This document shows, in pieces, positions 14,101 through 45,403 of a stretch of DNA of 64,000 nt. The notes beneath the pieces are model-generated. The model searched no databases, was not told the DNA's origin, and was given only the letters and a program-made list of their open reading frames with translations. The position numbers and the translations under genes are program-made. This DNA is from Candidatus Limnocylindria bacterium (lineage in GTDB: Bacteria > Chloroflexota > Limnocylindria > QHBO01): the NCBI GenBank assembly GCA_038209995.1, contig JBBQXD010000012.1, positions 1,514-65,513 of the forward strand, given 5' to 3'. Each line of letters starts with the position of its first letter. The first letter of the stretch is position 1.

Positions 14101-14101
14101 G

Positions 14102-17334: not shown

Positions 17335-17434
17335 TCTCGGCACGCCCGATCCCACCTCCGGTAGGGCGTCTGTCTTGGCGCTTTAGCGAGTCTTGCGCAA
17401 GAACCGGCGGCGCGGTCGGCTAGGCTCCCGCGCA

Positions 17435-18421
17435 ATGGACCTACGTGTGCTGCCCGCAGTGGTCCTTCTGACGACCGTTGCGCTAATCGCCTTCGGCGTG
17501 GCCCGACTAATCGAGCCTATCCAGTTGGCGAACATGTCCGATTGGATGAGCTACCACAACGGTGCGGCAAGGCTGGTTCTTGATGGCTCTCCGTACTCAG
17601 ACATGCAGTTCTCCGGCTACAAACTTGACCAAGCCGCGTGGGGCCGCGGGTTCGTCTATCCTCCGCCAGCCGCATTCCTGCTGTTCCCGACGCTTCTTGG
17701 CACTTGGACGTTCTGGGCGATCAACGCCGGCGCTGTGGTCTTTATTGGTGTTAGCGCACTAATCGCAGTCCGCGAAGGGCTGCCGTGGTACATGTGCGCG
17801 CTCGTGGCGGCGCTCGCATTCGCGCAACCCGGTCTCGCCGAGATCCGTGAAGGCCAACTCTCGCCGTGGATAGCTTCTGCCATAGGTCTCATGTGGCTGC
17901 GGAAATCTGCAGCAGGCTGGCTCTCAGTGTTGGCCGGCCTGATCAAGGTCTACCCGCTGCTAGGTCTGCTGTGGGCGTATCGACAACGCGCCGGGCTGCG
18001 TGGACCGCTTGCGCTTGCGCTGCTGTCCGTCGTCGTCCTCTTCCCGCTCTGGCTGGAGTGGGTTGCGGTGATGAGCAACGCACATGCAGGGTGTCCGAGT
18101 ATCTCGCTCCCGTCATTCACCTGCACCGCCGGTGCCGCGTGGCCGGGTTATGTAGCTGCGGCAGCGCTTGCGGTAGTAGCGCTTCGTGTTCGGTCTGATC
18201 GCGTCGCCTTTCTGGCTCTGTCATTGGCGATGATCGCGTCTGCGCCCGACATATACGTCGGGTATCTCCTGATTGTGTTCGTCGGGTTGCTGCCCACTCT
18301 TACGTTGCTGCTCGGCAAGATCGCGGCTATCCGCAACGGGAACCTGCCTCAGGCCACGGTGGATGACGAACGAAGCTCACCCACCCTCCCGCGTGCGTTT
18401 GAAGACATAACCACCAGCTAG
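17435..18421 (+). CDS. GT87/DUF2029-like polytopic membrane protein (putative polyprenyl-phosphate-sugar glycosyltransferase), lower-GC copy
   Basis: Shares the paralog motifs in order: DWMSYHNGAARLVLDGSPY, FVYPPPAAFLLFPTLL, LIKVYPLLGLLWAYRQR. About 9 TM helices. The ORF opens at TTG 17393; ATG at 17435. Confidence 0.65.
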   Translation: MDLRVLPAVVLLTTVALIAFGVARLIEPIQLANMSDWMSYHNGAARLVLDGSPYSDMQFSGYKLDQAAWGRGFVYPPPAAFLLFPTLLGTWTFWAINAGAVVFIGVSALIAVREGLPWYMCALVAALAFAQPGLAEIREGQLSPWIASAIGLMWLRKSAAGWLSVLAGLIKVYPLLGLLWAYRQRAGLRGPLALALLSVVVLFPLWLEWVAVMSNAHAGCPSISLPSFTCTAGAAWPGYVAAAALAVVALRVRSDRVAFLALSLAMIASAPDIYVGYLLIVFVGLLPTLTLLLGKIAAIRNGNLPQATVDDERSSPTLPRAFEDITTS

Positions 18422-19996
18422 CGCGACCTCGAGGCTGAATCGATAGTCGGATCGCAGGGACTCCACAAGAAGCGGGCAACAGTCTCCGTCCGTGATTCCC
18501 GGTCCAGGCCCTCGGGGAATGAATACGTAGTTAATTGACCGCTCCCAAGTGTCCGCCCAATGGACGAGACACTCGGCCGTGCCGTTTGAGCACGTCTCAA
18601 CCCCATCGGATGCGTCGACTGCAGCCCGCCAAGCGTCAGGGGTGGCAAACTCCAAGCCTTGAACCGTACCGACGCTTGATCTTCCCGCAAGAACCGGGAA
18701 CCACTCCGCAATGGCATCGACGGGCCAATCAGCACCAGTCACAACGAGAAATCGACTTCTCGCCGGAGTGTGGCCTTTAACCCATTCCATTGAATCCCGC
18801 TGCGGCCGAGAGACGCTGCTGAGCAGTCCGCCGGAAAGGTACGGGGCCCACAGGCTCACCAACACGCCTACGACACCAACGCTGAAGCTAGCCACCATTC
18901 GGCGGCGGGTTGACATTCTTCGCCCAAGTTCTTTTGCGGCAAGTGCGATCAACATTGCCAGCGGGGCCATCGCGTATGTGGGCGCGGCCCCGGGTACGAC
19001 GAGGAAGATGCTCACGAGCCACAGGGGAAGCCAGTACTTGCCTCGAGCAAGGCTAATAACGAGTCCCGCGCTACCGAAAATCGCGCCGATTGCAAAATAT
19101 GGCTCAGCCGTGAATCGAAAACTCAAGAGCAAGGCAAAAGCAAAGGGGAGCCAGAACCACCGAGATTGACCCGCAGCAAGCAGCGGCGCAGGTCCGTGGA
19201 CCACGATCACGTTGATCCACCATGGCGACGCGATGACAAGTCCGGCGACTGCAACCAGTGCTATGCGCCGGAGGGATGACATGCTGCGATCTCGGACGAG
19301 CCACGCAATTGCGAGCGTTACGAACACGAAACCGGCCCCCTCCAGATGAGACAGCAGCGTCAGTCCCGAGAACAGACTGCCGCCAATCCAATACGTCCGC
19401 TTCTGGTCTTGCAGGAGCCGTGTGATGAAGCCCACGGCGAGAAACGCGAACACCAGGCCCGGCGCTCTGGTGACTCCGCCTCCCGCTATAAGCCAAATCC
19501 ACGCGCGAGGAAGAACGGCCCAGGCGAACGTCGCAATAGAAGCGGACATTGGCCCAGTCCACGCGCGCGCCATGAAGTAAAACGCTGGCACCGATAGAAT
19601 CGCAAATGCCAGTGGAAGCACGCGGAGGGTTGTCTCTGGCCCGATGCCGACCACGGCGCGAATTACGGCGTCGAGATAGAGCCCAAACGGTGGATACGCG
19701 AATGGGATCCCGCCACCGTTGTAACTCGTGAATGCAGGCCAGGCGAGTTTTTTTGCAACGAGTTCCTGGCTCATTAGTGAGAAAAGCCCACCGTCATTCA
19801 AGATGAAGTCCGTGCCGAACACCGGCGCGCCCCGCACAATTACCCCGCATACCAGAGCGACAAAGAGGAGAAGACCGCCAGCGCGGGCAGCTTTCAACGG
19901 GTCCGCGACAACATCGGACCGCGTTAGCCGACGGTTGGCGGTAGTGTCAAACGCTTCGCCGGTCATCGTCGGCCGCCTCTTTTCGCTGGCGCTCAT
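18377..19996 (-). CDS. large GT-C-like polytopic membrane protein with C-terminal soluble domain, lower-GC copy
   Basis: FILNDGGLFSLMSQELVAKKLAWPAFTSYNGGGIPFAYPPFGLYLDA after TM1. More than 10 TM helices, then a ~150-aa C-terminal domain (YVFIPRGPGPGITDGDCCP). Paralog of the next gene. ATGA overlap with its stop at 19993-19996. Confidence 0.7.
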   Translation of the reverse strand: MSASEKRRPTMTGEAFDTTANRRLTRSDVVADPLKAARAGGLLLFVALVCGVIVRGAPVFGTDFILNDGGLFSLMSQELVAKKLAWPAFTSYNGGGIPFAYPPFGLYLDAVIRAVVGIGPETTLRVLPLAFAILSVPAFYFMARAWTGPMSASIATFAWAVLPRAWIWLIAGGGVTRAPGLVFAFLAVGFITRLLQDQKRTYWIGGSLFSGLTLLSHLEGAGFVFVTLAIAWLVRDRSMSSLRRIALVAVAGLVIASPWWINVIVVHGPAPLLAAGQSRWFWLPFAFALLLSFRFTAEPYFAIGAIFGSAGLVISLARGKYWLPLWLVSIFLVVPGAAPTYAMAPLAMLIALAAKELGRRMSTRRRMVASFSVGVVGVLVSLWAPYLSGGLLSSVSRPQRDSMEWVKGHTPARSRFLVVTGADWPVDAIAEWFPVLAGRSSVGTVQGLEFATPDAWRAAVDASDGVETCSNGTAECLVHWADTWERSINYVFIPRGPGPGITDGDCCPLLVESLRSDYRFSLEVALAGGYVFKRTREGG

Positions 19997-21525
19997 CGGG
20001 GGGATGTGTTCTTCGAAAGTGGCTCGAACACCCACGCCCCCTCGAGCTCCGCGACGCGATGGAATCGGTCATCGGTCGACAGGGCGAGCGCCAGCGAGTC
20101 GCAGCACGCGTCACCCTCGACCCCCGCCGTGCGGCCGCGTGGGATGAAGACGTAGTCGTAGCCGATGTTCCACTGCGTGCCCCAGTCGACGAGGCATTGC
20201 GCGGTGCCGGTGACGCACTCGTCGAGCGAGCCGGAGGCGAAGACGGCGTGCTCCCAGGCCTGCGAGGAGGTGAACTCCTTGCCCTGCACGGTGTTCGCGC
20301 TGCGGCGGTTGCTGAGGGTCGGGAACCATTCCGCGGTGGCGTCGATCGGCCAATAGGAGCCGGTCACGACGAGGAAGGTCGCGTCCGTCGGCGTGTTGTC
20401 GCCCGCCCAGGTCATCGCCGCGCGCTGCGCGGGTGAGACCGTGCTGAGCGGGTTGAGGTACTCGTAGCGCGCCCAGAGGCTGGATGCGAGTGCCACCACC
20501 AGCAGCACCGCACCGATCGTTAGCGCCCGACGCGGCGTCGCGAGCTCCACCAGCTTGCTGACCGCCAGCGCGATGAGCAGCGCCCAGGGCACCATGGCGT
20601 ACGTGGCCGCGCCCCCCGGCAGGGCGAAAAAGATGGCCACGATCCAGAGGGGCAGCCACCATCGGCCCGTGGCGACCGCGATCCCGAGACCGATGATCCC
20701 CAGGATGGCCCCCACCTCGACGAATGGTTCCGCCGTCCAGCGCAGGCTGACGAGGATGGCGAGCGCGATGTTCATGAACGCCGCCCGCGAGCCGCCGGCG
20801 GCAGTGAGCGGCGTCAGCCCGTGCTGCGCCACGATCGCCACGATCCAGGGTGAGGCGACCACGGCGGCCAGCAGCGCCACCACGGCCAACGTGCGCAGGC
20901 TCGCCAGGGACCGATGATGGACGAGCCACGCCACCCCGAGCGTGGCGCCCACGAAGGCCGCCGACTCGAGATGGGAGAGCGCGGTGAGGCCGGCGCAGAG
21001 GGGGGCGAGGATCCACCATCGGCGCTGAGGGGTCTCGAGCAGCCGGATCGTGGCCCCCACCGCGAGGAAGGCGAACAGCATGCCGAGCGAGCGCGTGAGG
21101 CCGCCCCCGCCGACCTGCCACATCCAGCTGCGCGGGATCACCGCCCAGGCCAACGTGGCGACCGCCGCCGTCGCGGGCGAGAACCAGCCGCGGACCATGA
21201 ACCAGAAGGCCGGGATGGTGAGGCACGTGATGAGCAGTGGCAGGACCCGCAGGCTGGCGCCATCGGTTCCGAACAGCGGACCGATGAGCGCGTTCAGGTA
21301 CAGCCCCAGCGGCGGGTAGCCGAACGGGATCTCACCGCCGTTGTAGCTCGTGGTGGCCGGCAGCAGGAAGCCGTTGTCCCGCAGGTCCCGGCTCATGACC
21401 GCGAACAGGCCGCCGTCATTGAGCGGGAAGTCAGCGGAGAGGACCGGCACGGCCCGGACGAGGATGCCGAAGCCAATGGCAGCCAGCAGGAGCAGGCCGG
21501 CCAGGCGGACGACGCCTGCCTGCAT
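19993..21525 (-). CDS. large GT-C-like polytopic membrane protein with C-terminal soluble domain
   Basis: FPLNDGGLFAVMSRDLRDNGFLLPATTSYNGGEIPFGYPPLGLYLNA, more than 10 TM helices, C-terminal YVFIPRGRTAGVEGDACCD. Start taken at MQAGVVRLAG (21525); GTG at 21567 is an alternative. Confidence 0.7.
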   Translation of the reverse strand: MQAGVVRLAGLLLLAAIGFGILVRAVPVLSADFPLNDGGLFAVMSRDLRDNGFLLPATTSYNGGEIPFGYPPLGLYLNALIGPLFGTDGASLRVLPLLITCLTIPAFWFMVRGWFSPATAAVATLAWAVIPRSWMWQVGGGGLTRSLGMLFAFLAVGATIRLLETPQRRWWILAPLCAGLTALSHLESAAFVGATLGVAWLVHHRSLASLRTLAVVALLAAVVASPWIVAIVAQHGLTPLTAAGGSRAAFMNIALAILVSLRWTAEPFVEVGAILGIIGLGIAVATGRWWLPLWIVAIFFALPGGAATYAMVPWALLIALAVSKLVELATPRRALTIGAVLLVVALASSLWARYEYLNPLSTVSPAQRAAMTWAGDNTPTDATFLVVTGSYWPIDATAEWFPTLSNRRSANTVQGKEFTSSQAWEHAVFASGSLDECVTGTAQCLVDWGTQWNIGYDYVFIPRGRTAGVEGDACCDSLALALSTDDRFHRVAELEGAWVFEPLSKNTSPR

Positions 21526-21677
21526 CTGGATGGAGTCACCCGCGTGGCGGGCTGTCACGACGTTCACGCGGCGGCAAGCATGCCGTATCGGAATCGCTGG
21601 GGGGATGGCCCATCTGGGCCATGTGGGGGCCGGTGGTATCCTCGCCCTCCCAGGTCGGCCAGGCACGGAGGAGGGCG

Positions 21678-22070
21678 ATGGCGCGGATCACGGTCGTCAA
21701 CGACAACCCCGAGTTCCTCGAGCTCGTGCGCGACATCCTCGAGGGGGATCGCTACGAGACCACCACGATCGACGGCGATCACCCCGACGCGCTGGCGGCC
21801 GTGCGCACATCCAGGCCGGATCTGCTGGTGATCGACCTGCGCATGGGGTCCGATGAGCTCCACGGCTGGGCGATCGGGCAGCAGGTGCGCAGGGATCCCG
21901 CGCTCGTCGGCCTGCCGATCCTGGTCTGCAGCGCCGACGTCCGCGCCCTTCGCGAGCTCGAAGAGGAGCTCGAGAGGGCACGCAACGTCCGAGCGCTCGT
22001 CAAGCCCTTCTCCATCGACGCGCTCACCGACGCGATCGACGGTCTGCTCGCCGAGCCGGCCTCGCAGTAG
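21678..22070 (+). CDS. stand-alone receiver-domain protein (single-domain response regulator)
   Basis: MARITVVNDNPEF, phospho-acceptor context LLVIDLRMG, LVKPFSIDAL. No output domain. GGAGGAG upstream of the ATG at 21678. Confidence 0.8.
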   Translation: MARITVVNDNPEFLELVRDILEGDRYETTTIDGDHPDALAAVRTSRPDLLVIDLRMGSDELHGWAIGQQVRRDPALVGLPILVCSADVRALRELEEELERARNVRALVKPFSIDALTDAIDGLLAEPASQ

Positions 22071-22085
22071 CACGACGAGGACCTC

Positions 22086-22547
22086 ATGGTGATCCGGCGG
22101 ATCATGGCCGCAGTGGTCGTCCTGCTCATGCTGGCTGCCTGCGACGAGGGGCCGACGCTGGTGCTGCCCTCGGGTGTGTCGACGTCGATCGTGCAGCTCG
22201 GCGAGGAGGACGGCACGCCCGCACCGCTCGGATCGTCGCTGCCGGTCGCCGACGCGGCTGCCGCCTGCATCACGCTCACGATCGTCGATAACCTGGTGGT
22301 GCTGCCGGACGAGTCACCGCCGGCCGAGAGCGTGGATCCCCAGCTGTTCGCGCTGCAGATCGGGACGCTGGCCGAGGACCTGCATCAGGTCGCGCTGCAG
22401 ACCACCGGCTCGGTGGCCGCGCAGGTGGAGACGATCTCGAAGGGGCTCCTGCAGGATAAGGCGGCGATCGCCGCCGGCCACGCTCCCGAGCGCGCCTGGC
22501 TGGACACATACGCCGCGCTGCACACGGACTTCGCCGGCTTCTGCTGA
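22086..22547 (+). CDS. lipoprotein of unknown function
   Basis: Signal/lipobox VVLLMLAACDEG. Starts 16 nt after the receiver gene. Confidence 0.55.
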   Translation: MVIRRIMAAVVVLLMLAACDEGPTLVLPSGVSTSIVQLGEEDGTPAPLGSSLPVADAAAACITLTIVDNLVVLPDESPPAESVDPQLFALQIGTLAEDLHQVALQTTGSVAAQVETISKGLLQDKAAIAAGHAPERAWLDTYAALHTDFAGFC

Positions 22548-22717
22548 GGCCGGCGTCGCGGGCCTCATCGGCGAGAGCAATCGGCGGGATGACGCGCACG
22601 GGCCTCGTGCCGCGACCTCTCGGAAACCCCGCGCCTGGGCACGACTCATGCGCAACAGGGCCGCGATGCATCGCCGAGACTCCACCCCAATTGCCGTTCG
22701 CGCGCGATTCGGGCGAT

Positions 22718-23590
22718 CTATCGCGGCGTGGCAGGTGGCGCAGCGGTTGGGGCCGGCGCAGCTGGCGCCTCCGCATCCTCGGCGGCACCGGCCGCGATCA
22801 GCGTGACGTCGTAGACGAAGAGGCGAGGCAGGGCGAGCACGGCCGCGGCGGCCGCCCCCAGGAGCGCGAAGCGGCTTGGGACGACCAGCACCCCAAGCAG
22901 CGCGGCACCTACCACCGCGACGTAGATGAGCGGGGAGACGCCGAGCAGCGAGGGCGCCGCGCCGGACTGCACGCCCGCCTTCGTGATCCCCATCAGCAGG
23001 CCGGGCACCAGCAGGACAGCCGCAAGCACGAGACTGGCAACGGCCTTCCACCACTCCCGCCGTACGATGTAGGCGGCGACCAGCAGGATCGGCGTGAACT
23101 TCATCGAGGCGGCGACCGCTACCGCCAGCGGCCCCCAGCGGCGATGGAAGCCAGCCACCAGCGCCAGGAGCATCAACGGCTGGACGTTGCCGCCGGCCGA
23201 GACCGCGAACAGCGGCGGCCCGACCAGCAGCGCGGCCACCACCCCCCAGCCGCCGCGCCGGGCAAGCAGCCACGCGACCGTCGCGGTGGCGACCAGCAAC
23301 ACTGCGCTCCAGCCGATCGCGACCACGATCCGCGGCAGCCAGGTCAGCGGAATCCAGGCCACCGCGTACCACGGCGCGTACCAGAACGAGTCGACGGCCA
23401 CGTCGCCCGGCACGTACAGCGCATGCCCATCACGGAGCCGCGTGGCGGCGGCGAGGTAGACGTCCATGTCGTGGAGCGGCCAGTCGCGGATCGCAAAGAC
23501 GATGTGGCTGATCCCGATCCCCACCAGCACCGCCAGCACGACCAGCCGCGCGGCCCGGGCGAGAAGGCCTGACGCGGCGGGCAGCGGCAT
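22718..23590 (-). CDS. GT87/DUF2029-like polytopic membrane protein
   Basis: DMDVYLAAATRLRDGHALY, FWYAPWYAVAWIPLTWLP, ASMKFTPILLVAAYIVRREWWKA. Start taken at MPLPAASG (23590). Confidence 0.7.
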   Translation of the reverse strand: MPLPAASGLLARAARLVVLAVLVGIGISHIVFAIRDWPLHDMDVYLAAATRLRDGHALYVPGDVAVDSFWYAPWYAVAWIPLTWLPRIVVAIGWSAVLLVATATVAWLLARRGGWGVVAALLVGPPLFAVSAGGNVQPLMLLALVAGFHRRWGPLAVAVAASMKFTPILLVAAYIVRREWWKAVASLVLAAVLLVPGLLMGITKAGVQSGAAPSLLGVSPLIYVAVVGAALLGVLVVPSRFALLGAAAAAVLALPRLFVYDVTLIAAGAAEDAEAPAAPAPTAAPPATPR

Positions 23591-23770
23591 CAGCGGTGTC
23601 GGCGGCAACACAGCGGCATCAGCGGCATCGGCGCGTCGGCGGCATCGGTCCAGTGTGCATGATGAACGGGTGAGCACGCGGCGGGTTCGGATGGCGACCG
23701 ATGCTCCGCTCCGCATGGGCGCGCTCCAGATTCAGCCCGCGCGAGATGGTCGGCGCGTCCGGGTGTCCCG

Positions 23771-25566: not shown

Positions 25567-25579
25567 GGATCCGCCAATC

Positions 25580-30440: not shown

Positions 30441-30452
30441 CGGTCCGCGAGT

Positions 30453-31280
30453 CTAGTCGGTGCGTCCGCGCACCAACAGGGGCCGAACGTACGGGCCTGG
30501 CCCGCCCGGCACGAGCGCCACGAGCAGCCACGACAGGTCATACGGCCAGAAGCGCGGCAGCGCCACGACGGCGAGCGCGCCGGCGGCCAGCCACGCCCAA
30601 CGCGTGCGCGCCAGCGCAACCGTGGCCACGACGCCCGCCGCGACGACCGGCACGTAGAGCGGCGTGCCCCACAGGATCGTCCGCTCGCCGGCGTCGGTCG
30701 GGTAGGCCGCGAGGTCGTAGGCGAGCATCGGTGCGACGGCGAGGGCAGTGATGACCGCGAAGAGCGCGAAGCTGCGCCACTGCCCGCGGCCGAGGTAGAC
30801 GAGCGCGAAGGCGGCCGGCACGGCCTTGATGCTGGCCGCGATCGCCACCCAGGCGGGGGCGGTCCATCTGTCCCGCGACCAGACGAGGCTCGCGACGAGA
30901 AGGGGCTGCACGTTGCCGTCCGAGACGCTGCCGAGCAGCGCACCGATGAGCAGGACGTTGACCGGCCACGCCTCTCGCACGCGCCATGCGACATAGGCGA
31001 CGGCCGCCACCGAGCTGACGAGCAGGAGCAGCCGCGAGCCGACGAGCGACCAGAGCGCCGCGAACCACGGGGCGTAGCGGTAGACGTCTGCGACGTTCAT
31101 GCTCCCCGGCGCGTAGAGCGACTCCCCGGCTCGCAGCCGAGCGGCGGCCGCGTCATACGCCGCCACGTCCGGCTGGCCCATGGCCGTCACCGCCCACCAG
31201 CCGAGGACGATGCCGAGGCCGACGCAGACGGCGGTGGCCGGGATGCGGAGCAGCGTCGCGCGAGCCATATGCGAGCGCAT
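30453..31280 (-). CDS. GT87/DUF2029-like polytopic membrane protein
   Basis: DVAAYDAAAARLRAGESLY, VYRYAPWFAALWSLV, ASIKAVPAAFALVYLGRGQWRS. Start uncertain (31280, 31268 or 31331). Confidence 0.7.
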   Translation of the reverse strand: MRSHMARATLLRIPATAVCVGLGIVLGWWAVTAMGQPDVAAYDAAAARLRAGESLYAPGSMNVADVYRYAPWFAALWSLVGSRLLLLVSSVAAVAYVAWRVREAWPVNVLLIGALLGSVSDGNVQPLLVASLVWSRDRWTAPAWVAIAASIKAVPAAFALVYLGRGQWRSFALFAVITALAVAPMLAYDLAAYPTDAGERTILWGTPLYVPVVAAGVVATVALARTRWAWLAAGALAVVALPRFWPYDLSWLLVALVPGGPGPYVRPLLVRGRTD

Positions 31281-31432
31281 GGTGGCACGCGCGTGGGCGC
31301 CTTCGAACCGCCGATGGTCATGGGTCTCCAAGGCTGACGGGCGGAAGGCGCCGATGCGCTACCGTTCGCGAGTGCAATCCCCGGCGACAGGGCCACCCGA
31401 TCCGCTGCGTCAGCTCCCGGCAGCCGTGCCGA

Positions 31433-32251
31433 ATGGCCAGCGCGTCTGACGCGGCCGCGCTCCTCGCCCATTTCCGCCAGCCCGATGGCGGCTTCGGGCC
31501 GTCCGCGCAGGCTCCCTCCGAGCCGGAGCCCACGGCGCTCGCGGCGCTCGCGCTCGACGACGAGCGGGCGCGGGCATGGCTCCTCGACCAGCAGGGCGAT
31601 GACGGGTCGTGGTTGATGGGACCGGCATCGGTCGGCAATGACGCCGCCACCTCATGGGCCGCGCTCGCGGTGGATGGCATTGCCCGTGAGCACGCGCTCG
31701 ACTACCTCGTCGCGCACCGCGCGGTGCAGGCCGGCGCCGACGACCGCGTCCCGCACGACATCGCCACCCGCGGCTGGAGCTGGACGCCGTCGATCTTCGG
31801 CTGGGTGGAGCCGACCTCCCGCGCCACGCTCGTCCTGAAGCTCCTCCGCCCCGCCGCCACCCCCGAGATCGCCGACGGGATCGCCGTGCTCGCAGATCGC
31901 GAATGCGTCGACGGCGGCTGGAACTACGGCAACCGCCGCGTGCTCGAGGTCGACCTTCCGCCCTTCCTTCAGACGAGCGCCGCGGGCCTGATGGCGGTCC
32001 ACGACGGCCCCGCCGATCTTCGCGCGCGGGGCGTGGCCACCGTCGAGCGGCTGTGGCGGGACGAGCAGGGCGGGCTCGGGTGGGCGATGGGTGTTGTGGC
32101 GCTGCGGCTCTCCGGCGAGGCGGTGACCGGCCACGCGGACGAGCTAGCGCGTCTCATCGACGACACCCGGCTCCTCGACGACACGGTCGCCCTGGCGTGG
32201 GCGACGCTCGCCCTCGGCGAGGGCTGGCAGCAGCTGCGCGTGGGCCGATGA
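31433..32251 (+). CDS. prenyltransferase/squalene-oxidase-repeat (terpenoid-cyclase-like alpha/alpha toroid) protein
   Basis: Repeated QxxDGGF/W-type motifs: FRQPDGGFG, QQGDDGSWL, CVDGGWNYGN, DEQGGLGW. ATGA overlap with the next gene. Confidence 0.55.
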   Translation: MASASDAAALLAHFRQPDGGFGPSAQAPSEPEPTALAALALDDERARAWLLDQQGDDGSWLMGPASVGNDAATSWAALAVDGIAREHALDYLVAHRAVQAGADDRVPHDIATRGWSWTPSIFGWVEPTSRATLVLKLLRPAATPEIADGIAVLADRECVDGGWNYGNRRVLEVDLPPFLQTSAAGLMAVHDGPADLRARGVATVERLWRDEQGGLGWAMGVVALRLSGEAVTGHADELARLIDDTRLLDDTVALAWATLALGEGWQQLRVGR

Positions 32252-33384
32252 GCGACGAGCGCATGGATGACGAGCCGCGCCACCTGCCCGGTGACGCGCC
32301 CGGCGACGCCGTCGAGCGCGTCCTGCGGCACCGCCTCTCCCGGCGGCGGTTCCTCATCCGCACGGCGCAGATCACCCTGGCCGCGGGCGCGGTCGGGATC
32401 GGTGTCGCGGGCTGGCTCGCCCAGCAGCGCCCGTCGCCGTGGAATCCGGCGAAGTTCGCGCCCCTCGGCCGCTCGAGGGTTGCCGTGCTCACCGCGTCCG
32501 GCTACGGCATCGACCTCGAGGCGCGGGTGCGCGACGCGCTCACGCTGCTCAACGTCGACGTGGCGCATCGGTCCATCCTCCTCAAGCCGAACATCGTCGA
32601 GTTCGATCCCCGTGCCGCGATCAATACCGACCCGCGCCTGGTGGCCGCCACGGTCGCCGCGATGCGGAGCATGGGCGCCAGCTCGGTCACCGTCGGCGAG
32701 GGATCCGGGCATAGGCGGGACACGCAGTACATCGCCTCGCGCTCGGGCCTGCTCGATTTGCTGCGCGACGTCGATGCGCCGTTCGTCGACCTCAACACGG
32801 CGCCGGTGCGGCGCGTGACGCTCGACTCGCAGTTCACGCGGCTCGGCGAGCTGTGGCTGCCGACGCCGATCCTCGATGCCGACCTCGTCGTCTCGATGCC
32901 GAAGCTCAAGACCCACCACTGGGGCGGTGTCACCCTCTCCCTGAAGAACTGCTTCGGGATGGTCCCGAGCCGCATCTACGGCTGGCCGAAGAACGTGCTC
33001 CACTGGGCGGGCCTCAACGGCTCGATCCTCGACGTCGCCGCGGCGGTGCGCCCCGGCCTGGCGATCGTGGACGGGATCGTCGGCATGCAGGGCAACGGGC
33101 CGATCCAGGGCGACCCGGTCAACGCGGGCGTCATCATCGTCGGGACCGATCCGGTGGCCGTCGACAGCACCGCGGCCCTGCTCATGGAGATCGACCCCGA
33201 GCGCGTCGAGTACCTCTTCGATGCCGGCCGCTTCCTCGGGCAGCTGCACCCCGAGCTCATCGACCAGGTCGGCGAGGACCTCGGACCGCTCGCCACCCCG
33301 TTCGCGCTGCTCCCGCAGTTCGCCGCGCTGCGGATCGGCGCGTTGCCGAGCCCGTCGGCCGCCAAATCGGACCCCGGGGCCTAG
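32248..33384 (+). CDS. DUF362-domain protein with Tat-type signal peptide
   Basis: Twin-arginine signal LSRRRFLIRTAQITLAAGAVG. DUF362 hallmarks ILLKPNIVEF, TVGEGSG, MPKLKTHHWGGVTLSLKNCFG, IVDGIVGMQGNGP. Confidence 0.8.
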   Translation: MSDERMDDEPRHLPGDAPGDAVERVLRHRLSRRRFLIRTAQITLAAGAVGIGVAGWLAQQRPSPWNPAKFAPLGRSRVAVLTASGYGIDLEARVRDALTLLNVDVAHRSILLKPNIVEFDPRAAINTDPRLVAATVAAMRSMGASSVTVGEGSGHRRDTQYIASRSGLLDLLRDVDAPFVDLNTAPVRRVTLDSQFTRLGELWLPTPILDADLVVSMPKLKTHHWGGVTLSLKNCFGMVPSRIYGWPKNVLHWAGLNGSILDVAAAVRPGLAIVDGIVGMQGNGPIQGDPVNAGVIIVGTDPVAVDSTAALLMEIDPERVEYLFDAGRFLGQLHPELIDQVGEDLGPLATPFALLPQFAALRIGALPSPSAAKSDPGA

Positions 33385-33388
33385 GGCG

Positions 33389-34828
33389 TCAACCCGCGGC
33401 GCAGCGGACGAGGAGCACCTTGCGGTCGTCGCGGTAGGCCTCGCACCACCCGTGGTCCGTGGCCCCGCCCCCCTTCGTGATCGGCGCCCCGGGCGGGAAG
33501 AGCATCGCCTCCACCCCGTAGCGGTCGACGAGCGCCTGCCATCCGGGATCCGCCGCTCGCACGTGCGAGTAGTCATCGAGGATGCGCTGGTCGTACATGT
33601 CGTTCCGCCCGTCCACGAAGACGCGCCCGCCCGACGGGTAGATACGGCTGATCGCGTAGCCGCCCCAGCCGTACTCGGCCATGAGACGGACCCGCGGCAG
33701 CTTCGCGCTCAGCACGTTGAGCGCGGCGGCGGGGTAGTCGTCCTCGCGGATCGCCGGCTTCGCGCCGGGCCACAGCACGGCGAACGCGACGATCACGACG
33801 AGCGCGGCGACGCCGGCCTCCATGAGCCGCCTTGCCCGCGCGGTGCGCGGCGGGCGCTCGCGCGGCGGGCCCGCGAAGCGCGACTCGATCCCGATCCCGA
33901 GCGCCGGCGCGGCGAGGATCGCGGCGAGCGGGATGTTGCGCAGCGAGGCGAGCCCGGCCACCACGCCGATCCAGCTCAGCAGGACGAGCCATCCCGGCGC
34001 GCGGCGACCGCCGTTCGCGATGAGCGCCACGATGAGGAGCAGGAACGCCCAGTGCGCCGGGTCGTGGAAGTTCGGCGACTGCCACTCCTGGATGTTCGCC
34101 AGGCCCCAGTCGCCGGCGTCGATGTAGCGCAGCGGGTAGAGGACGCCCGCCGGACCCGCCGGGGTGAGCATCGTGGCAAGGATCGAGAGACCGAAGACCA
34201 GGAGCATCCGGCCGCGGGCGGCGGCCATCGGGGTGCGGCCGGCGAGTGTGAACGTGGTGTAGACCGCGAGGACGCCGAGCCCCACCACCCACAGGCCGTG
34301 GAGATTCGCCCACGCCGCGAACAGCACCGGAATGAGGAGCGCTGCCCGCAAGCGGTCCGCGCGCAGGGCGTCGAGCCACGCGACGAGCCCCGCGAGCAGC
34401 GCCCACGACAGGGCCTGCGGCCGCACGGTGAGGAAGCTCGCCAGGATCCCCGCGGCGAGTACCACCGGCACCGCCACGGCCAGCGTCCGCGCCCCGCGGC
34501 GCGCGAGGAGGAAAGCGACGAGACCGAGGGTCACGAGGCCGAGGAGCCCGAAGGCGACGAGCGCGCCCATCGGTCCGACGGCGTCCTGCACGACGGTCAT
34601 GAGCACCTCGCCGAGCCATTCGTGCGGCGTCCACGGCTGGCCGGCCCAGGTGAAGGAGAACGGATCGACCGATGGGATGCCGCTGGTCGTGATGAGGTGC
34701 CCGACCGTCACGTGCCAGAAGTAGTCCGGGTCGTTGATCCCGCGACCGATGACGACGGCGAGCAGGATCAGCCCCGCGGCGGCGACGAGGATCACGGTCG
34801 GCGACGGCAGGGTGCGCAGTCGTGACAT
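33389..34828 (-). CDS. polytopic membrane protein with DxD first loop (GT-C-like candidate)
   Basis: MSRLRTLPSPTVILVAAAGLILLAVVIGRGINDPDYFWHVTVGHLITTSGIPSVDPFSFTWAGQPWTPHEWLGEVLM. More than 10 TM helices plus a C-terminal soluble domain. Paralog of the divergent neighbour. Confidence 0.7.
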   Translation of the reverse strand: MSRLRTLPSPTVILVAAAGLILLAVVIGRGINDPDYFWHVTVGHLITTSGIPSVDPFSFTWAGQPWTPHEWLGEVLMTVVQDAVGPMGALVAFGLLGLVTLGLVAFLLARRGARTLAVAVPVVLAAGILASFLTVRPQALSWALLAGLVAWLDALRADRLRAALLIPVLFAAWANLHGLWVVGLGVLAVYTTFTLAGRTPMAAARGRMLLVFGLSILATMLTPAGPAGVLYPLRYIDAGDWGLANIQEWQSPNFHDPAHWAFLLLIVALIANGGRRAPGWLVLLSWIGVVAGLASLRNIPLAAILAAPALGIGIESRFAGPPRERPPRTARARRLMEAGVAALVVIVAFAVLWPGAKPAIREDDYPAAALNVLSAKLPRVRLMAEYGWGGYAISRIYPSGGRVFVDGRNDMYDQRILDDYSHVRAADPGWQALVDRYGVEAMLFPPGAPITKGGGATDHGWCEAYRDDRKVLLVRCAAG

Positions 34829-34937
34829 CGCCGGTGAGTCTAGAGGCTGCCCATCACGGCGCGAGCGACCGAAGGTACCAGCGACGCACCGGCGCCCCGC
34901 GGAGATACCCTTGCCGCTCGTGAAGTCCCGACTCCCG

Positions 34938-36437
34938 ATGAGCGCGGTCGCCGTGGTGGCATTCTTCGCCCTCGTCGTCCTGCCCCGCACCTCCGTGCCG
35001 CTCCTCGACGGCGACGTGTGGTGGCACCTCCGCGCCGGCGAAACGGTGCTCGACACCGGGCACGTCCCGGCGGTCGATGCCTGGACGATCGTCGGCGAGG
35101 GGATGCGCTGGATCAGCCAGGACTGGCTGACGAACAGCATCATGGCCGCGGTCGTGCGGGCGGGCGGCGGGTCCGGGATGACGCTCCTGTCGCTGCTCTT
35201 CGCGGCGCTCGTGGTCGTCGCCGTCGCGCTCCTCTGGGCGGCCATCGGGCGGCGGGTACCGCGCGTCGGGTGGCTGGCGCGGATCGGCTGGCTGACCCTC
35301 GCCCTGATCGTCGCCGGACCGATCGCCGGGGTGCGCGTCCAGACCATCGACCTGCTGATGACCGCGCTGGCGGCCTGGGTCCTGTGGAGCTACCTCGCCG
35401 ATCGCCGGGCGCGCTGGCTCGTCGCCCTGCCACTCATCTCGGTGGCGTGGGTCAACCTCCACGCCGGCTGGCCGCTGCTCATGGCGCTCATCGGCGGGAT
35501 CGCCGTTGGGGAGGCCGGCGATCGGCTCGTTCCACGTGGAACGGCTGCATCCGGGCGCGAGCCGCTGACCTGGTCGCAGATTGGATGGCTGGCCTTGGCC
35601 GGCACTGCCGCGTTCGCGGTGGTGGCGATCAACCCGAACGGGCTGGCGATGTTCGGCTACCCGTTCGCGACCGCCTCGATCGCGTCCCACCGCGACTTCA
35701 TCTTTGAGTGGTCACGGCCCGACTTCGGCTCGTTCCCCGGGCAGATGGTCTTCGTCCTGCTGCTGGTGGCGGTCATCCCGACCCTCGTCGTCGCGCGCCG
35801 CACGATGCCGCTCGCCGACGCCCTGTGGCTCATTGGCCTCGCCGCGATGTCCCTGACCGCCATCCGCTTCGCGCTCCTCGCCGGGCCGATCTGCGCCGCC
35901 GTCGCCGCCGTCCATCTCTCGCCGCGGCTCGCGGCCTGGCGCCCGTTGCGCGGCGCGGCGATGGCAGCGGAACGCATGGAGCGGCAATCCCGCGGCGGGC
36001 TCGGCGCCGTGAACCTGGTCCTCGCCGGGCTCGTGCTCGTCTTTGGCGTGGCCATCTCGTACGGGCGCGTCACGCCGGCGGTCCAGGCGTCCGAGATCGC
36101 GGGCGCGATGCCCGTCGCCGCGGCGGCATGGCTTCGCGACCACGACCCGACGGCGCGCATCTTCAACGTCTACGCCTGGGGCGGCTACCTCGGTCGGGAG
36201 CTCCCGGCGGGCCGCGTCTACATCGACGGCCGCTCGGACATCTACGGCGACGGACCGATCCGGGCCTACGCGCGGGCCATCTCCCTGGAGACCGATCCGG
36301 CGCCGCTGCTCGCCGCGGCCGGCGTCGACGCGGTCGTCTTCTGGCCCGACTCCGCCCTGGCCGGCTGGCTCGATACTCACGGCTGGCGACGCGTCCACGC
36401 GGATCCGGTCGCCGCGATCTGGATGAGGCGCGTCTGA
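34938..36437 (+). CDS. polytopic membrane protein with DxD first loop (GT-C-like candidate), paralog of 33389-34828
   Basis: VVLPRTSVPLLDGDVWWHLRAGETVLDTGHVPAVDAWTIVGEGMRWISQDWLTNSIM parallels the neighbour's N-terminus. Similar C-terminal domain (IFNVYAWGGYLGRELPAGRVYIDGRSDIYGD versus MAEYGWGGYAISRIYPSGGRVFVDGRNDMYD). GTG at 34920 is an alternative start. Confidence 0.7.
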   Translation: MSAVAVVAFFALVVLPRTSVPLLDGDVWWHLRAGETVLDTGHVPAVDAWTIVGEGMRWISQDWLTNSIMAAVVRAGGGSGMTLLSLLFAALVVVAVALLWAAIGRRVPRVGWLARIGWLTLALIVAGPIAGVRVQTIDLLMTALAAWVLWSYLADRRARWLVALPLISVAWVNLHAGWPLLMALIGGIAVGEAGDRLVPRGTAASGREPLTWSQIGWLALAGTAAFAVVAINPNGLAMFGYPFATASIASHRDFIFEWSRPDFGSFPGQMVFVLLLVAVIPTLVVARRTMPLADALWLIGLAAMSLTAIRFALLAGPICAAVAAVHLSPRLAAWRPLRGAAMAAERMERQSRGGLGAVNLVLAGLVLVFGVAISYGRVTPAVQASEIAGAMPVAAAAWLRDHDPTARIFNVYAWGGYLGRELPAGRVYIDGRSDIYGDGPIRAYARAISLETDPAPLLAAAGVDAVVFWPDSALAGWLDTHGWRRVHADPVAAIWMRRV

Positions 36438-40325: not shown

Positions 40326-40334
40326 CCCGCACAC

Positions 40335-45398: not shown

Positions 45399-45403
45399 TC
45401 GCC

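What the first reader, a model, noticed from the sequence alone, without database searches (positions are those of the whole stretch)
17393..36437. Island of about twelve polytopic GT-C-like membrane proteins, including six GT87/DUF2029-like paralogs: candidate uncharacterised extracytoplasmic glycan/lipoglycan assembly system
From 17.4 to 36.4 kb almost every gene encodes a multi-pass membrane protein. Six 280-330-aa paralogs lie at 17435-18421, 22718-23590, 23771-24604, 24601-25566, 27982-28848 and 30453-31280. They share three motifs in the same order. First, a loop motif after TM1: DMDVYLAAATRLRDGHALY / DASAYWAAAHRLREGGELY / DMNAYWNAALRLRDGEPLY / DVAAYDAAAARLRAGESLY. Second, YRYAPWFA. Third, AS(L/M/I)KxxP...YxGRREW(W/A)RA. 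Three 530-540-aa proteins have ArnT/PMT-like N-termini and C-terminal soluble domains (18377-19996, 19993-21525, 28845-30440). Two more paralogs carry a DxD immediately after TM1 (33389-34828, 34938-36437). The island also holds a membrane-embedded SpeE-fold protein. An acidic residue in the first extracytoplasmic loop is the hallmark of GT-C enzymes that use polyprenyl-phosphate sugar donors (PimE/GT87, ArnT/GT83, PMT/GT39, PglB). The locus has no interleaved cytoplasmic GT-A/GT-B enzymes, Wzx/Wzy, or ABC exporter, so it does not look like a standard O-antigen, EPS or teichoic-acid locus. It resembles the dispersed mycobacterial LM/LAM/arabinogalactan GT-C set condensed into one place. The product and acceptor are unknown.
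Basis: partly seen in the sequence, partly recalled or inferred. Interest (0 to 1): 0.78.

Follow-up and report, generated by a model that had tools for sequence, protein, structure and literature searches.

The report
Membrane sugar-transferase gene island, uncultured Chloroflexota
A 19-kb stretch from an uncultured soil and freshwater bacterium (Candidatus Limnocylindria) encodes eleven membrane sugar-transferases of the kind that build cell-envelope glycans on the outer face of the membrane; the gene families are known, but this pathway and its product are not.

Summary
Between 17.4 and 36.4 kb, 12 of 15 genes encode polytopic membrane proteins, and 11 are GT-C glycosyltransferases.

- **GT87 (six genes):** G5, G7, G9 and G11 are close paralogs (35-47% identity). 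G1 and G6 are distant members. A profile of all six hits the solved PimE structure (E=3.6e-8). It aligns the catalytic Asp58, Tyr62, Tyr92, Gln163 and Lys195 of PimE with invariant residues.
- **PMT_2 type (three genes):** G2 and G3 match Pfam directly. G10 matches only through its homologues.
- **No Pfam model (two genes):** G14 and G15 form a separate family. The AlphaFold model (pLDDT 91.5) matches STT3, PglB, DPY19, AftD and ArnT.
- **G8:** a 14-helix membrane protein with a central spermidine-synthase-fold domain.

Charge bias places the conserved Asp loops outside the cytoplasm.

Relatives are all Candidatus Limnocylindria (Chloroflexota) genomes assembled from metagenomes. The island always lies between sigma-54 regulator/PCMT/GT4 genes and a two-component system plus Flp/Tad pilus genes. 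Its glycosyltransferase content varies from genome to genome.

Most likely it assembles or decorates an envelope glycoconjugate from polyprenyl-phosphate sugars. The acceptor, sugars and donor synthases remain unknown. I rate it a new variant of a known kind, of moderate interest.

The parts
17393..18421 (+). G1, distant GT87-like GT-C (start probably 17435)
   Evidence: GT87 at 23.3 bits, E=6e-5, just below the cut-off. It keeps the D..Y, Y-P-P, G-Q and K..P skeleton. It lies in a 58-64% GC islet. An orthologue was seen only in L024.
18377..20035 (-). G2, PMT_2-type GT-C with a C-terminal soluble domain of about 150 aa containing 4 Cys
   Evidence: PMT_2 at 32.7 bits. 50% identical to G3. Located in the low-GC islet. 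Cys count.
19993..21666 (-). G3, PMT_2-type GT-C with a C-terminal soluble domain containing 4 Cys (start may be 21525)
   Evidence: PMT_2 at 47.6 bits. Relatives at 31-61% identity in 10 loci.
22086..22547 (+). G4, small predicted lipoprotein (signal peptide ending LAAC)
   Evidence: Translation. No Pfam or NCBIfam hit. Not found in relatives.
22718..23716 (-). G5, short GT87 glycosyltransferase (start probably 23590)
   Evidence: GT87 at 25.0 bits. Matches NF009915 (PimE-type mannosyltransferase) at E=2.5e-6, far below its cut-off. Orthologues at 53-78% identity in close relatives.
23771..24604 (+). G6, GT87 glycosyltransferase, distant from the G5/7/9/11 subfamily
   Evidence: GT87 at 48 bits over 216 of 237 profile positions. 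BLASTP to G7 and G9 only about 5e-3.
24601..25566 (+). G7, short GT87 glycosyltransferase; overlaps the G6 stop by 4 nt
   Evidence: GT87 at 28.7 bits. At least 847 metagenomic homologues. The G7-orthologue profile hits GPI mannosyltransferase I at E=1.6e-5. The AF2 model is only pLDDT 67.8, but its top Foldseek hit is PimE 9dm7 with probability 0.98.
25580..27706 (+). G8, 14-helix membrane protein with a central spermidine-synthase-fold domain (residues about 222-486)
   Evidence: Spermine_synth at 37.7 bits. Matches Thermus SpeE 1uir at E=5e-8. Helix map and charge bias. More than 7500 homologues, all with automatic names only. Syntenic in 12 of 30 relative loci.
27982..28953 (-). G9, short GT87 glycosyltransferase (start probably 28848, overlapping the G10 stop)
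   Evidence: GT87 at 43.9 bits. NF009915 at E=1e-6. Orthologues in 21 of 30 loci.
28845..30440 (-). G10, divergent PMT_2-like GT-C with a C-terminal soluble domain of about 120 aa
   Evidence: No direct Pfam hit. 1460 family representatives. 35 of 50 homologues match PMT_2. Invariant D34, R195, D197 and H355. No PDB sequence hit.
30453..31331 (-). G11, short GT87 glycosyltransferase (start probably 31280)
   Evidence: GT87 at only 16.6 bits. It is 44% identical to G7 (E=1e-30) and scores 190 bits against the G7-orthologue profile.
31433..32251 (+). G12, soluble protein of unknown function; membership in the system is uncertain
   Evidence: No Pfam or PDB hit. The G12-G13 pair is conserved in L001 and L003.
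32267..33384 (+). G13, DUF362 protein with a twin-arginine-like N-terminus (SRRRFLI); membership in the system is uncertain
   Evidence: DUF362 at 174 bits. Translation.
33389..34828 (-). G14, GT-C-fold enzyme of a family with no Pfam model; DxD after the first helix; C-terminal alpha/beta domain
   Evidence: AF2 pLDDT 91.5 and pTM 0.90. Foldseek hits STT3 8age at E=1.6e-7 (TM-score 0.62), then PglB, DPY19, AftD and ArnT. No consistent Pfam family among 35 members. Invariant D33, D35, W38, H39, R136, Q138, W173, N175, H177, E248 and W249.
34938..36437 (+). G15, paralog of G14, transcribed divergently
   Evidence: 27% identical to G14 over 483 aa, E=1e-21. The G14-G15 pair is conserved in at least 10 relative loci.
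4226..5689 (-). GT4 cytoplasmic glycosyltransferase, the conserved upstream flank of the island and a possible primer of the pathway
   Evidence: Glycos_transf_1 and Glyco_transf_4. 63-71% identical and located 1.5-8 kb upstream of the G7 orthologue (positions: 1.7 kb in L041, 2.4 kb in L043, 2.5 kb in L010, up to 8.3 kb in L016; L008 about 10 kb, GT4 cut at the locus edge) in 11 relatives. Only generic NCBIfam matches.
37545..39538 (+). HisKA_3 histidine kinase plus LuxR-type response regulator, the conserved downstream flank
   Evidence: Pfam hits. The regulator is 88-94% identical and adjacent to the G10 and G15 orthologues in L037, L053, L057 and L058.

Best explanation
The island is the variable core of an envelope-glycan locus that is conserved across the uncultured class Candidatus Limnocylindria (Chloroflexota).

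**Components.** It encodes eleven GT-C glycosyltransferases:
- six GT87 enzymes (G5, G7, G9 and G11, plus the distant G1 and G6);
- three PMT_2-type enzymes with soluble C-terminal domains facing outward (G2, G3, G10);
- two members of an undescribed family that resembles STT3, PglB and ArnT (G14, G15).

**Proposed mechanism.** Each enzyme sits in the cytoplasmic membrane with its N-terminus inside. A conserved Asp, or DxD, lies in the first outside loop. Each takes a sugar from a polyprenyl-phosphate-linked donor that was made in the cytoplasm and flipped outward. Each then adds the sugar, one linkage type per enzyme, to a glycan growing on the outer face of the membrane.

The most likely product is a branched heteroglycan, possibly mannose-rich, anchored to a lipid or to the wall. 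That would be a functional analogue of actinobacterial lipomannan, lipoarabinomannan or arabinogalactan. The syntenic cytoplasmic GT4 possibly primes it. The PMT_2-type and STT3-like enzymes would do the initiating, attaching or capping steps through their outside C-terminal domains. G8 is a conserved accessory membrane protein of unknown role.

**Shown here:** family membership, conservation of the catalytic residues, the orientation of the first loop (by charge bias), the GT-C fold of G14, and synteny and variability across genomes.

**Inferred:** donor type, sugar identity, acceptor, and the claim that all eleven enzymes serve one product.
For: - **GT87 membership.** GT87 HMM hits. The six-paralog profile hits PimE (9dm5, 9dm7, 9mjb) at E=3.6e-8.
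- **Catalytic residues.** The invariant residues D36, Y40, Y75, G140-N/Q and K171 align with PimE D58, Y62, Y92, G162-Q163 and K195. Mutagenesis shows these PimE residues are essential for catalysis or for phosphate binding (PMC12041525).
- **Related fold.** The profiles also hit GPI mannosyltransferase I, another enzyme that uses a polyprenyl-phosphate-mannose donor.
- **PMT_2.** Direct hits for G2 and G3. 35 of 50 G10 homologues match.
- **G14.** The model has pLDDT 91.5, and all fourteen PDB matches with E of 0.001 or lower are GT-C enzymes. hhalign aligns the DxD of G14 with the invariant Asp of G10.
- **Topology.** Net positive charge before the first helix and net negative charge after it, in most members of all four families. 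G2 and G3 have 4 Cys each in their C-terminal domains.
- **Functional unit.** The same gene families co-occur around G7 orthologues in 30 loci from Limnocylindria genomes, between the same flanks. Distinct orthologues of G5, G7, G9, G10 and G11 at 67-90% identity in close relatives show that the paralogs are old and specialised.
- **Gene coupling.** Four-nucleotide overlaps join G6 to G7 and G10 to G9.
Against: - No donor synthase (Ppm1/DPM1-like GT2 or UbiA-type), flippase or glycan exporter was found in the window. The rest of the genome could not be searched.
- The genes lie in at least six transcription units on both strands. Content varies between genomes, with 2-7 GT87 ORFs per 20 kb. 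The enzymes may therefore serve several products.
- G1 and G11 fall below the Pfam cut-off on their own.
- The C-terminal W319/H321/H322 motif of PimE is not aligned, and the proteins are about 130 residues shorter than PimE.
- The G7 structure model is poor (pLDDT 67.8; TM-score to PimE 0.31).
- The G10 profile has no PDB match.
- Topology rests on hydropathy and charge bias only.
Confidence: 0.55

Rival explanations
1. This is a protein glycosylation system. The PMT_2-type enzymes (G2, G3, G10) start O-glycosylation of secreted or surface proteins. The GT87 enzymes extend the chains. The STT3-like G14 and G15 transfer glycans to protein en bloc. Targets could be surface-anchored proteins, an S-layer, or the Flp pilin encoded next door.
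For: - PMT_2 includes the actinobacterial protein O-mannosyltransferases (established knowledge of the family).
- The best structural matches of G14 are oligosaccharyltransferases and the protein C-mannosyltransferase DPY19.
- A secreted Ala/Thr-rich protein with a Pro/Thr/Ser linker and a C-terminal anchor lies at 15139-16236.
- The order island, two-component system, Flp pilin, Tad genes is conserved in L037, L057 and L058.
Against: - Every characterised GT87 enzyme acts on glycolipid or polysaccharide acceptors (own knowledge, plus PMC12041525).
- G14 and G15 lack the WWDYG motif of oligosaccharyltransferases. The corresponding region reads YGWGGY.
- Foldseek also matches AftD and ArnT, which act on a polysaccharide and on a lipid respectively.
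- Adjacency to the pilus genes may only reflect a conserved chromosomal backbone.
Confidence: 0.25
2. This is not one pathway but a hot spot of the genome. Independent GT-C modules accumulate there. Each one adds a side-branch sugar to a different envelope glycan after polymerisation, like the Gtr-type or GT136 three-component systems.
For: - Gene content between the conserved flanks differs in nearly every genome.
- G1 and G2 sit in a 58-64% GC islet within DNA of about 70% GC, and they have orthologues in only one relative.
- There are at least six transcription units in both orientations.
- Extracytoplasmic glycosylation by single GT-C enzymes after polymerisation is a widespread strategy (PMC11127046).
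Against: - The donor synthase and flippase that define three-component modules are absent next to the GT-C genes.
- A core set (orthologues of G7, G9, G8, G14, G15 and G10) recurs together across genomes. This argues for a shared pathway with variable additions.
Confidence: 0.15
3. The GT87-like proteins are not active glycosyltransferases. They could be scaffold subunits like PIGU, or transporters.
For: - PimE resembles PIGU, a non-glycosyltransferase, in structure (PMC12041525).
- The proteins are about 130 residues shorter than PimE and lack its C-terminal His motif in the alignment.
Against: - The catalytic Asp, its partner Tyr and the phosphate-binding Lys and Gln/Asn are invariant in all six paralogs.
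- The same residues are invariant in 25 G7 orthologues.
Confidence: 0.04

Closest known systems
Mycobacterial and corynebacterial GT-C machinery for PIM, lipomannan, lipoarabinomannan and arabinogalactan (PimE, MptA-D, AftA-D, EmbA-C)
   Same: - Multiple GT-C enzymes act in series on the outer face of the membrane, using polyprenyl-phosphate sugars.
- The GT87 family is shared, and the catalytic residues of PimE are conserved.
- A cytoplasmic GT4 is linked, as PimA and PimB are in mycobacteria.
- PAP2 phosphatase genes flank the island in two relatives. This recalls Rv3807c in the mycobacterial arabinogalactan cluster (own knowledge).
   Different: - The phylum differs: Chloroflexota, not Actinomycetota.
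- No Emb, AftA, AftB or AftD family members were detected.
- The GT87 proteins are about 275-290 aa against 415 aa for PimE, and the W-x-H-H motif is not aligned.
- Eleven GT-C genes are packed into 19 kb.
- The island includes a new STT3-like family and a membrane protein with a SpeE fold.
- No donor-synthesis genes were seen.
Oligosaccharyltransferases STT3, PglB and AglB (GT66)
   Same: - The G14 model superposes best on STT3 and PglB (E=1.6e-7, TM-score 0.62).
- It has a DxD in the first outside loop.
- It has a soluble alpha/beta domain after the last helix.
   Different: - There is no sequence similarity to any PDB chain.
- The WWDYG motif is absent, replaced by YGWGGY.
- The protein has about 11 helices and 480 aa, against 13 helices and more than 700 aa.
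- There is no Pfam STT3 match.
PMT/ArnT-type GT-C enzymes (Pfam PMT_2; CAZy GT39 and GT83)
   Same: - G2 and G3 pass the PMT_2 cut-off.
- Most G10 homologues match PMT_2.
- They have an acidic residue in loop 1 and a C-terminal domain facing outward.
   Different: - No NCBIfam equivalog matches them.
- Profiles and single sequences do not reach ArnT or Pmt structures.
- The acceptor class (lipid A, protein or glycan) is unknown.
Three-component extracytoplasmic glycan modification systems (GtrABC; the GT136 pentofuranose system, PMC11127046)
   Same: - A GT-C enzyme with a C-terminal binding domain adds sugars from a polyprenyl-phosphate donor outside the cytoplasm.
- The gene content is variable and may be driven by surface diversity.
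   Different: - Those systems pair one GT-C with its own synthase and flippase.
- Here eleven GT-C genes occur with no adjacent synthase or flippase.
Membrane-anchored spermidine-synthase-like proteins (NCBIfam 'fused MFS/spermidine synthase' NF037959; PRK03612)
   Same: - G8 has the SpeE fold. The conserved VEID and NDG motifs correspond, by my own reading of SpeE structures, to nucleotide contacts.
- It combines that fold with a membrane domain.
   Different: - All scores are far below the family cut-offs.
- The soluble domain sits between two blocks of 7 helices each.
- The sequence reads GAGSGT in place of GGG(D/E)G.
- Charge bias predicts that the domain faces outward.
- No member of the G8 family has a tested function.

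Membership tests
GT87 (Pfam PF09594; PimE-like) | Sequence matches the family HMM at or above the curated cut-off of 25 bits | tested here: met
   G6 48.0, G9 43.9, G7 28.7 and G5 25.0 bits pass. G1 (23.3) and G11 (16.6) do not pass on their own. G11 is tied to the family through 44% identity to G7. G1 is tied only through the near-threshold hit and the shared catalytic skeleton.
GT87 (Pfam PF09594; PimE-like) | Catalytic Asp at the start of the first outside helix (PimE D58), with its hydrogen-bond partner Tyr (Y62) | tested here: met
   In the HMM alignment to 9dm5, D36 and Y40 align with D58 and Y62. Both are invariant in the six paralogs and in 25 G7 orthologues. Residue roles are taken from PMC12041525.
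GT87 (Pfam PF09594; PimE-like) | Residues that bind the donor phosphate (PimE Y92, Q163, K195) | tested here: met
   Y75, N/Q141 and K171 align with them. K and Y are invariant. The Q163 position is Asn in five paralogs and Gln in G1.
GT87 (Pfam PF09594; PimE-like) | C-terminal W319/H321/H322 motif of PimE | tested here: inconclusive
   The HMM alignment stops at PimE residue 230. The paralogs carry a conserved P-R-F-x-x-Y-D motif near the C-terminus instead. Equivalence could not be tested.
GT87 (Pfam PF09594; PimE-like) | GT-C fold similar to the solved PimE structure | tested here: inconclusive
   The G7 model has only pLDDT 67.8. PimE 9dm7 is still the top Foldseek hit (probability 0.98), but with E=0.055 and TM-score 0.31.
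GT87 (Pfam PF09594; PimE-like) | Uses polyprenyl-phosphate-mannose as donor | not testable with these tools
   This needs enzyme assays. No donor synthase was found in the window.
PMT_2 (Pfam PF13231; GT39/GT83-like GT-C) | Sequence matches the family HMM at or above the cut-off of 26.1 bits | tested here: met
   G2 32.7 and G3 47.6 bits. G10 itself does not match, but 35 of 50 homologues do, with a best E of 3.7e-12.
PMT_2 (Pfam PF13231; GT39/GT83-like GT-C) | Acidic residue in the first extracytoplasmic loop | tested here: met
   G2 and G3 have (T/A)DF.LNDGG directly after the first helix. D34 of G10 is invariant in 50 homologues. Charge bias puts this loop outside in 44 of 50.
Oligosaccharyltransferase (STT3/PglB/AglB, GT66), considered for G14 and G15 | Overall fold | tested here: met
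   Foldseek E from 1.6e-7 to 1e-4 and TM-score 0.54-0.62 against STT3 and PglB.
Oligosaccharyltransferase (STT3/PglB/AglB, GT66), considered for G14 and G15 | WWDYG motif in the C-terminal domain, and detectable sequence homology | tested here: not met
   There is no WWD motif. The nearly invariant sequence at that place is YGWGGY. There is no PDB or Pfam sequence match. G14 and G15 are therefore filed as GT-C fold with family unassigned, not as GT66.
GT-C superfamily (G14/G15) | Multi-helix core with an acidic motif in the first outside loop, and a remote profile relationship to another GT-C family | tested here: met
   D33-x-D35 is invariant. All fourteen PDB matches with E of 0.001 or lower are GT-C enzymes. 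hhalign against the G10 family gives E=1.8e-4 over 404 columns, but only 49% probability.
Spermidine synthase / aminopropyltransferase (G8) | SpeE fold with the GGG(D/E)G motif and catalytic D-x-x-D-P, scoring at equivalog level | tested here: not met
   The fold is matched (37.7 bits; 1uir at E=5e-8). However, the motifs read GAGSGT and ALPDS, and all NCBIfam scores are far below their cut-offs (46.5 against 260). G8 has the SpeE fold but is not shown to be a spermidine synthase.

The most novel reading that the evidence does not exclude
Candidatus Limnocylindria is an abundant, uncultured class of soil and freshwater bacteria with small genomes. In this reading, it builds a major envelope lipoglycan or wall heteroglycan almost entirely outside the cytoplasm with GT-C enzymes. 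That would be an independent counterpart, in Chloroflexota, of the mycobacterial LM/LAM/arabinogalactan strategy.

The pathway would use a previously undescribed STT3-like GT-C family (G14 and G15). It would also use a 14-helix protein whose SpeE-fold domain faces outward and does something other than SAM or dcSAM chemistry. The locus would be hypervariable between fixed flanks, as O-antigen loci are, which implies selection for surface diversity.
Probability: 0.25. Interest if true: 0.75.

Novelty: new variant of a known kind. Interest (0 to 1): 0.55.

Why it matters
Limnocylindria (formerly Ellin6529) are widespread in soils and lakes. They have no cultured representative, and nothing is known about their envelope.

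- **Envelope biology.** A class-wide locus of about 19 kb is close to 1% of a genome of about 2.4 Mb. If it is devoted to extracytoplasmic glycosyltransferases, a complex surface glycan is probably central to their biology.
- **Reach of GT87 chemistry.** The locus would extend PimE-type chemistry, so far studied only in Corynebacteriales, to another phylum.
- **New families to test.** It offers a compact 'minimal' GT87 of about 280 aa, and a confidently modelled GT-C family with no Pfam model, for structural and enzymatic study.
- **Strain typing.** Variable content between fixed flanks could serve as a marker for surface diversity among strains.

Tried and rejected
- **Single-sequence PDB searches.** Searches with G9, G3, G10 and G14 found nothing meaningful. 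Only profiles reached PimE and PIG-M. Profiles of the G14 and G10 families found no PDB sequence.
- **NCBIfam.** It gave no equivalog for any island protein.
- **G7 structure.** The model built from 25 close orthologues was too shallow (pLDDT 67.8) for a decisive fold comparison.
- **G12.** No Pfam or PDB hit was found. My impression of terpene-cyclase-like repeats stays untested.
- **ORF 16220-16891.** I first counted it as a gene. Its translation looks like wrong-frame, high-GC sequence, so I dropped it.
- **Actinobacterial origin.** I considered this because of the 70% GC content. I rejected it because all relatives are Limnocylindria or Chloroflexota genomes and the window carries a sigma-54 activator.
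- **Literature.** Searches for GT-C, DUF2029 or GT87 in Chloroflexota, and for membrane SpeE-like proteins, found nothing relevant.
- **RNA genes.** There are no tRNA or Rfam features in the window.

Full report
**1. What is there**

The window is about 70% GC. I separated real genes from the many spurious ORFs by codon-position GC. Between 17.4 and 36.4 kb I accept 15 genes:

| Gene | Coordinates | Strand |
|---|---|---|
| G1 | 17393-18421 | + |
| G2 | 18377-20035 | - |
| G3 | 19993-21666 | - |
| G4 | 22086-22547 | + |
| G5 | 22718-23716 | - |
| G6 | 23771-24604 | + |
| G7 | 24601-25566 | + |
| G8 | 25580-27706 | + |
| G9 | 27982-28953 | - |
| G10 | 28845-30440 | - |
| G11 | 30453-31331 | - |
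| G12 | 31433-32251 | + |
| G13 | 32267-33384 | + |
| G14 | 33389-34828 | - |
| G15 | 34938-36437 | + |

Public gene calls agree exactly for G7, G8 and G14 (100% hits of equal length). Twelve of the 15 genes are polytopic membrane proteins. G4 is a small lipoprotein, G12 is soluble, and G13 is a DUF362 protein with a twin-arginine-like N-terminus. Four-nucleotide overlaps join G6 to G7 and G10 to G9. There are at least six transcription units.

**2. The GT87 group**

Pfam GT87 is matched by G6 (48.0 bits), G9 (43.9), G7 (28.7) and G5 (25.0, the cut-off). G1 (23.3) and G11 (16.6) fall below the cut-off.

The 'six paralogs' are really four close ones plus two distant members. G5, G7, G9 and G11 are 35-47% identical, with E of 1e-14 or lower. 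G6 and G1 are distant. All six share an invariant skeleton.

A profile of the six hits the solved M. abscessus PimE (9dm5, 9dm7, 9mjb) at E=3.6e-8, and GPI mannosyltransferase I at about 2e-4. Counting through that alignment gives these correspondences:

| Island paralogs (invariant) | PimE |
|---|---|
| D36 | D58 |
| Y40 | Y62 |
| Y75 | Y92 |
| G140-N/Q | G162-Q163 |
| K171 | K195 |

In PimE, D58 is the proposed catalytic base. Mutating D58, Y62, Y92, Q163 or K195 to alanine abolishes activity (PMC12041525).

The island proteins are about 275-290 aa, against 415 aa for PimE. The C-terminal W319/H321/H322 region of PimE is not aligned. A conserved P-R-F-x-x-Y-D motif occupies the C-terminal part instead, and its equivalence is untested.

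My AlphaFold model of G7 was weak (pLDDT 67.8). PimE was still the top PDB hit, but not significantly.

**3. The PMT_2 group**

G2 and G3 pass the PMT_2 cut-off and are 50% identical to each other. G10 has no direct hit. Its family has 1460 representatives, and 35 of 50 homologues match PMT_2. In the G10 family, D34 in the first loop is invariant, together with R195, D197 and H355.

**4. G14 and G15**

G14 and G15 are 27% identical. They have no Pfam family, even at E up to 1 across 35 members, and no PDB sequence match.

The AlphaFold model of G14 is confident (pLDDT 91.5, pTM 0.90). All fourteen PDB matches with E of 0.001 or lower are GT-C enzymes:
- STT3, at E=1.6e-7 and TM-score 0.62;
- PglB;
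- DPY19;
- AftD;
- ArnT.

D33-x-D35 directly after the first helix is invariant. So are R136, Q138, W173, N175, H177, E248 and W249.

The WWDYG motif of oligosaccharyltransferases is absent. The sequence at that place reads YGWGGY. I therefore file the pair as GT-C fold with family unassigned, not as GT66.

Profile-profile comparison with the G10 family aligns the two loop-1 Asp motifs (E=1.8e-4, 49% probability).

**5. Topology**

No dedicated predictor was available. I used hydropathy and the positive-inside rule. The segment before the first helix is net positive and the segment after it is net negative in these fractions of each family:
- 5 of 6 island GT87 paralogs;
- 19 of 25 G7 orthologues;
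- 32 of 35 G14-family members;
- 44 of 50 G10-family members.

The N-terminal tails of G1, G2, G3, G5 and G9 carry 8-12 Arg or Lys residues. The conserved acidic loops are therefore predicted to lie outside, as in GT-C enzymes.

**6. G8**

The central domain of G8 has the spermidine-synthase fold (Thermus SpeE at E=5e-8). Three points argue against it being a spermidine synthase:
- It reads GAGSGT where aminopropyltransferases have GGG(D/E)G.
- It reads ALPDS where they have D-x-x-D-P.
- All NCBIfam scores are far below their cut-offs.

The family is very large, with more than 7500 relatives, and carries only automatic names.

Family-averaged hydropathy gives 7 helices, the soluble domain, then 7 more helices. 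Conserved Lys and Arg residues fall in alternate loops in a pattern that puts the soluble domain outside the cytoplasm. That is hard to reconcile with the conserved VEID and NDG motifs, which I read as the nucleotide contacts of SpeE. I leave this unexplained.

**7. Origin and conservation**

All close homologues are metagenomic. A scan of one genome per species returned 53 loci. Nearly all come from Candidatus Limnocylindria or Chloroflexota genomes assembled from metagenomes. This class has genomes of about 2.4 Mb and 69% GC, and no cultured member (PMC10608941).

Mapping the window's proteins onto 30 loci of at least 14 kb shows a fixed backbone:
- upstream: sigma-54 regulator, PCMT and GT4;
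- then the GT-C island;
- downstream: HisKA_3 kinase, LuxR regulator, Flp pilin, RcpC, CpaE and CpaF.

Inside the island, orthologues of G7, G9, G8, G14, G15, G10 and G5 recur. Numbers and order differ, with 2-7 GT87 ORFs per 20 kb. Close relatives have separate orthologues of G5, G7, G9, G10 and G11 at 67-90% identity, so the paralogs are old and specialised.

Three further points on variation:
- In this window about 10 kb sits between GT4 and the island. It holds two two-component systems, an FtsX permease and a surface protein.
- G1 and G2 lie in a 58-64% GC islet and have orthologues in only one relative.
- Relatives add other genes at the island edges: PAP2 phosphatases, methyltransferases, a protein with methyltransferase and sulfatase domains, GT2 and Wzy_C.

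**8. Interpretation**

The best-supported reading is an extracytoplasmic system for glycan assembly or decoration. It would run on polyprenyl-phosphate sugars, each GT-C making one linkage. The product would be a lipid- or wall-anchored heteroglycan (confidence 0.55).

The rivals are:
- protein glycosylation (0.25);
- a hot spot of independent modification modules (0.15);
- non-enzymatic proteins (0.04).

The donor, the sugars and the acceptor are inferred, not shown. No donor synthase or flippase is in the window.

**9. Novelty**

The families GT87 and PMT_2, the GT-C fold and the general mechanism are all known. The new elements are:
- the phylum;
- the density of eleven GT-C genes in 19 kb;
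- short GT87 enzymes of about 280 aa;
- a confidently modelled GT-C family with no Pfam model;
- the conserved 14-helix SpeE-fold partner;
- variable content between fixed flanks.

No literature on any of this was found. I rate it a new variant of a known kind, with interest 0.55.

Noticed in passing
window 17200-20000: G1 and G2 are convergent, with 3' ends overlapping at 18377-18421. They lie in a 58-64% GC islet within DNA of about 70% GC. Orthologues occur only in L024. This looks like an accessory module, possibly acquired.
   Followed up: partly
window 40215-54885; L037, L057, L058: A Flp pilin ORF (ending ...EEGQTLVEYGLLLALIA...) lies within 40215-40532. It is followed by genes for RcpC/CpaB, a CpaE-like protein, CpaF, TadB/C, TadE and a TadG-like protein. 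The order GT-C island, HisKA_3 kinase, LuxR regulator, Flp, Tad is conserved in three other Limnocylindria genomes. A functional link, such as pilin glycosylation or shared regulation, is untested.
   Followed up: partly
window 25580-27706 (G8): The positive-inside rule on 16 homologues predicts that the SpeE-fold domain, which sits between two blocks of 7 helices, faces outside the cytoplasm. Yet the VEID and NDG motifs, which I read as nucleotide contacts, are conserved. Helix 1 (LLFAELTLIRW) and helix 9 (AFLLLETKSLV) look like an internal repeat.
   Followed up: partly
window 15139-16236 (- strand): This gene encodes a 365-aa Ala/Thr/Gly/Val-rich secreted protein. It has a signal peptide, a Pro/Thr/Ser linker (PPPTTLPNASVS), a C-terminal hydrophobic helix and an Arg-rich tail. 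It is a candidate surface-anchored protein, possibly glycosylated, next to the island. It has no Pfam hit.
   Followed up: no
window 5700-15000: About 10 kb lies between the GT4 gene and the island here. It holds a response regulator (6129-6848), a kinase (6861-8201), an FtsX permease (8252-10981), and a kinase/regulator pair (13141-14848). Most relatives have GT4 only 1.5-8 kb upstream of the G7 orthologue, so this looks like an insertion into the conserved backbone.
   Followed up: partly
L057 18605-19507; L058 19087-21072; L003 6151-8862; L001 1373-6277 and 10921-11595: Relatives carry extra genes at the island edges that are absent from this window. These are PAP2 and PAP2_3 phosphatases, class I and FkbM methyltransferases, a 903-aa protein with methyltransferase and sulfatase domains, a GT2, and a Wzy_C protein.
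   Followed up: partly
window 31433-33384: G12 has no family match. It has DGGFG and DGSW repeats that reminded me of prenyltransferase or terpene-cyclase repeats. G13 is a DUF362 protein with an SRRRFLI twin-arginine-like signal. The two form a conserved pair inside the island in L001 and L003, and their role is unknown.
   Followed up: partly
window 16220-17390: The ORF at 16220-16891 translates to Arg/Gly-rich sequence that looks non-coding. The stretch of about 1.1 kb upstream of G1 seems to lack a convincing gene.
   Followed up: no
window 58467-59900 (- strand): This gene encodes an LPG_synthase_TM / TIGR00374 'flippase-like domain' membrane protein, 22 kb from the island. It is a conceivable lipid-linked-sugar flippase, but it is not linked to the island by synteny.
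   Followed up: no
L011, L029, L038, L039, L040, L045: Six loci have G7 orthologues at 49-63% identity, and three of them (L038, L039, L045) also show GT87-rich gene content, with a G14 orthologue in L039. They sit in genome bins titled Steroidobacteraceae, Zixiibacteriota or Gemmatimonadales. This is probably mis-binning of Limnocylindria contigs rather than true occurrence in those groups.
   Followed up: no
window 3-1526 and 60507-61754: The window carries a sigma-54-dependent response regulator and MreB. The sigma-54 regulator argues against actinobacterial DNA despite the 70% GC (absence of sigma-54 from Actinobacteria is my own knowledge, as is reading MreB as indicating a rod shape).
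   Followed up: no
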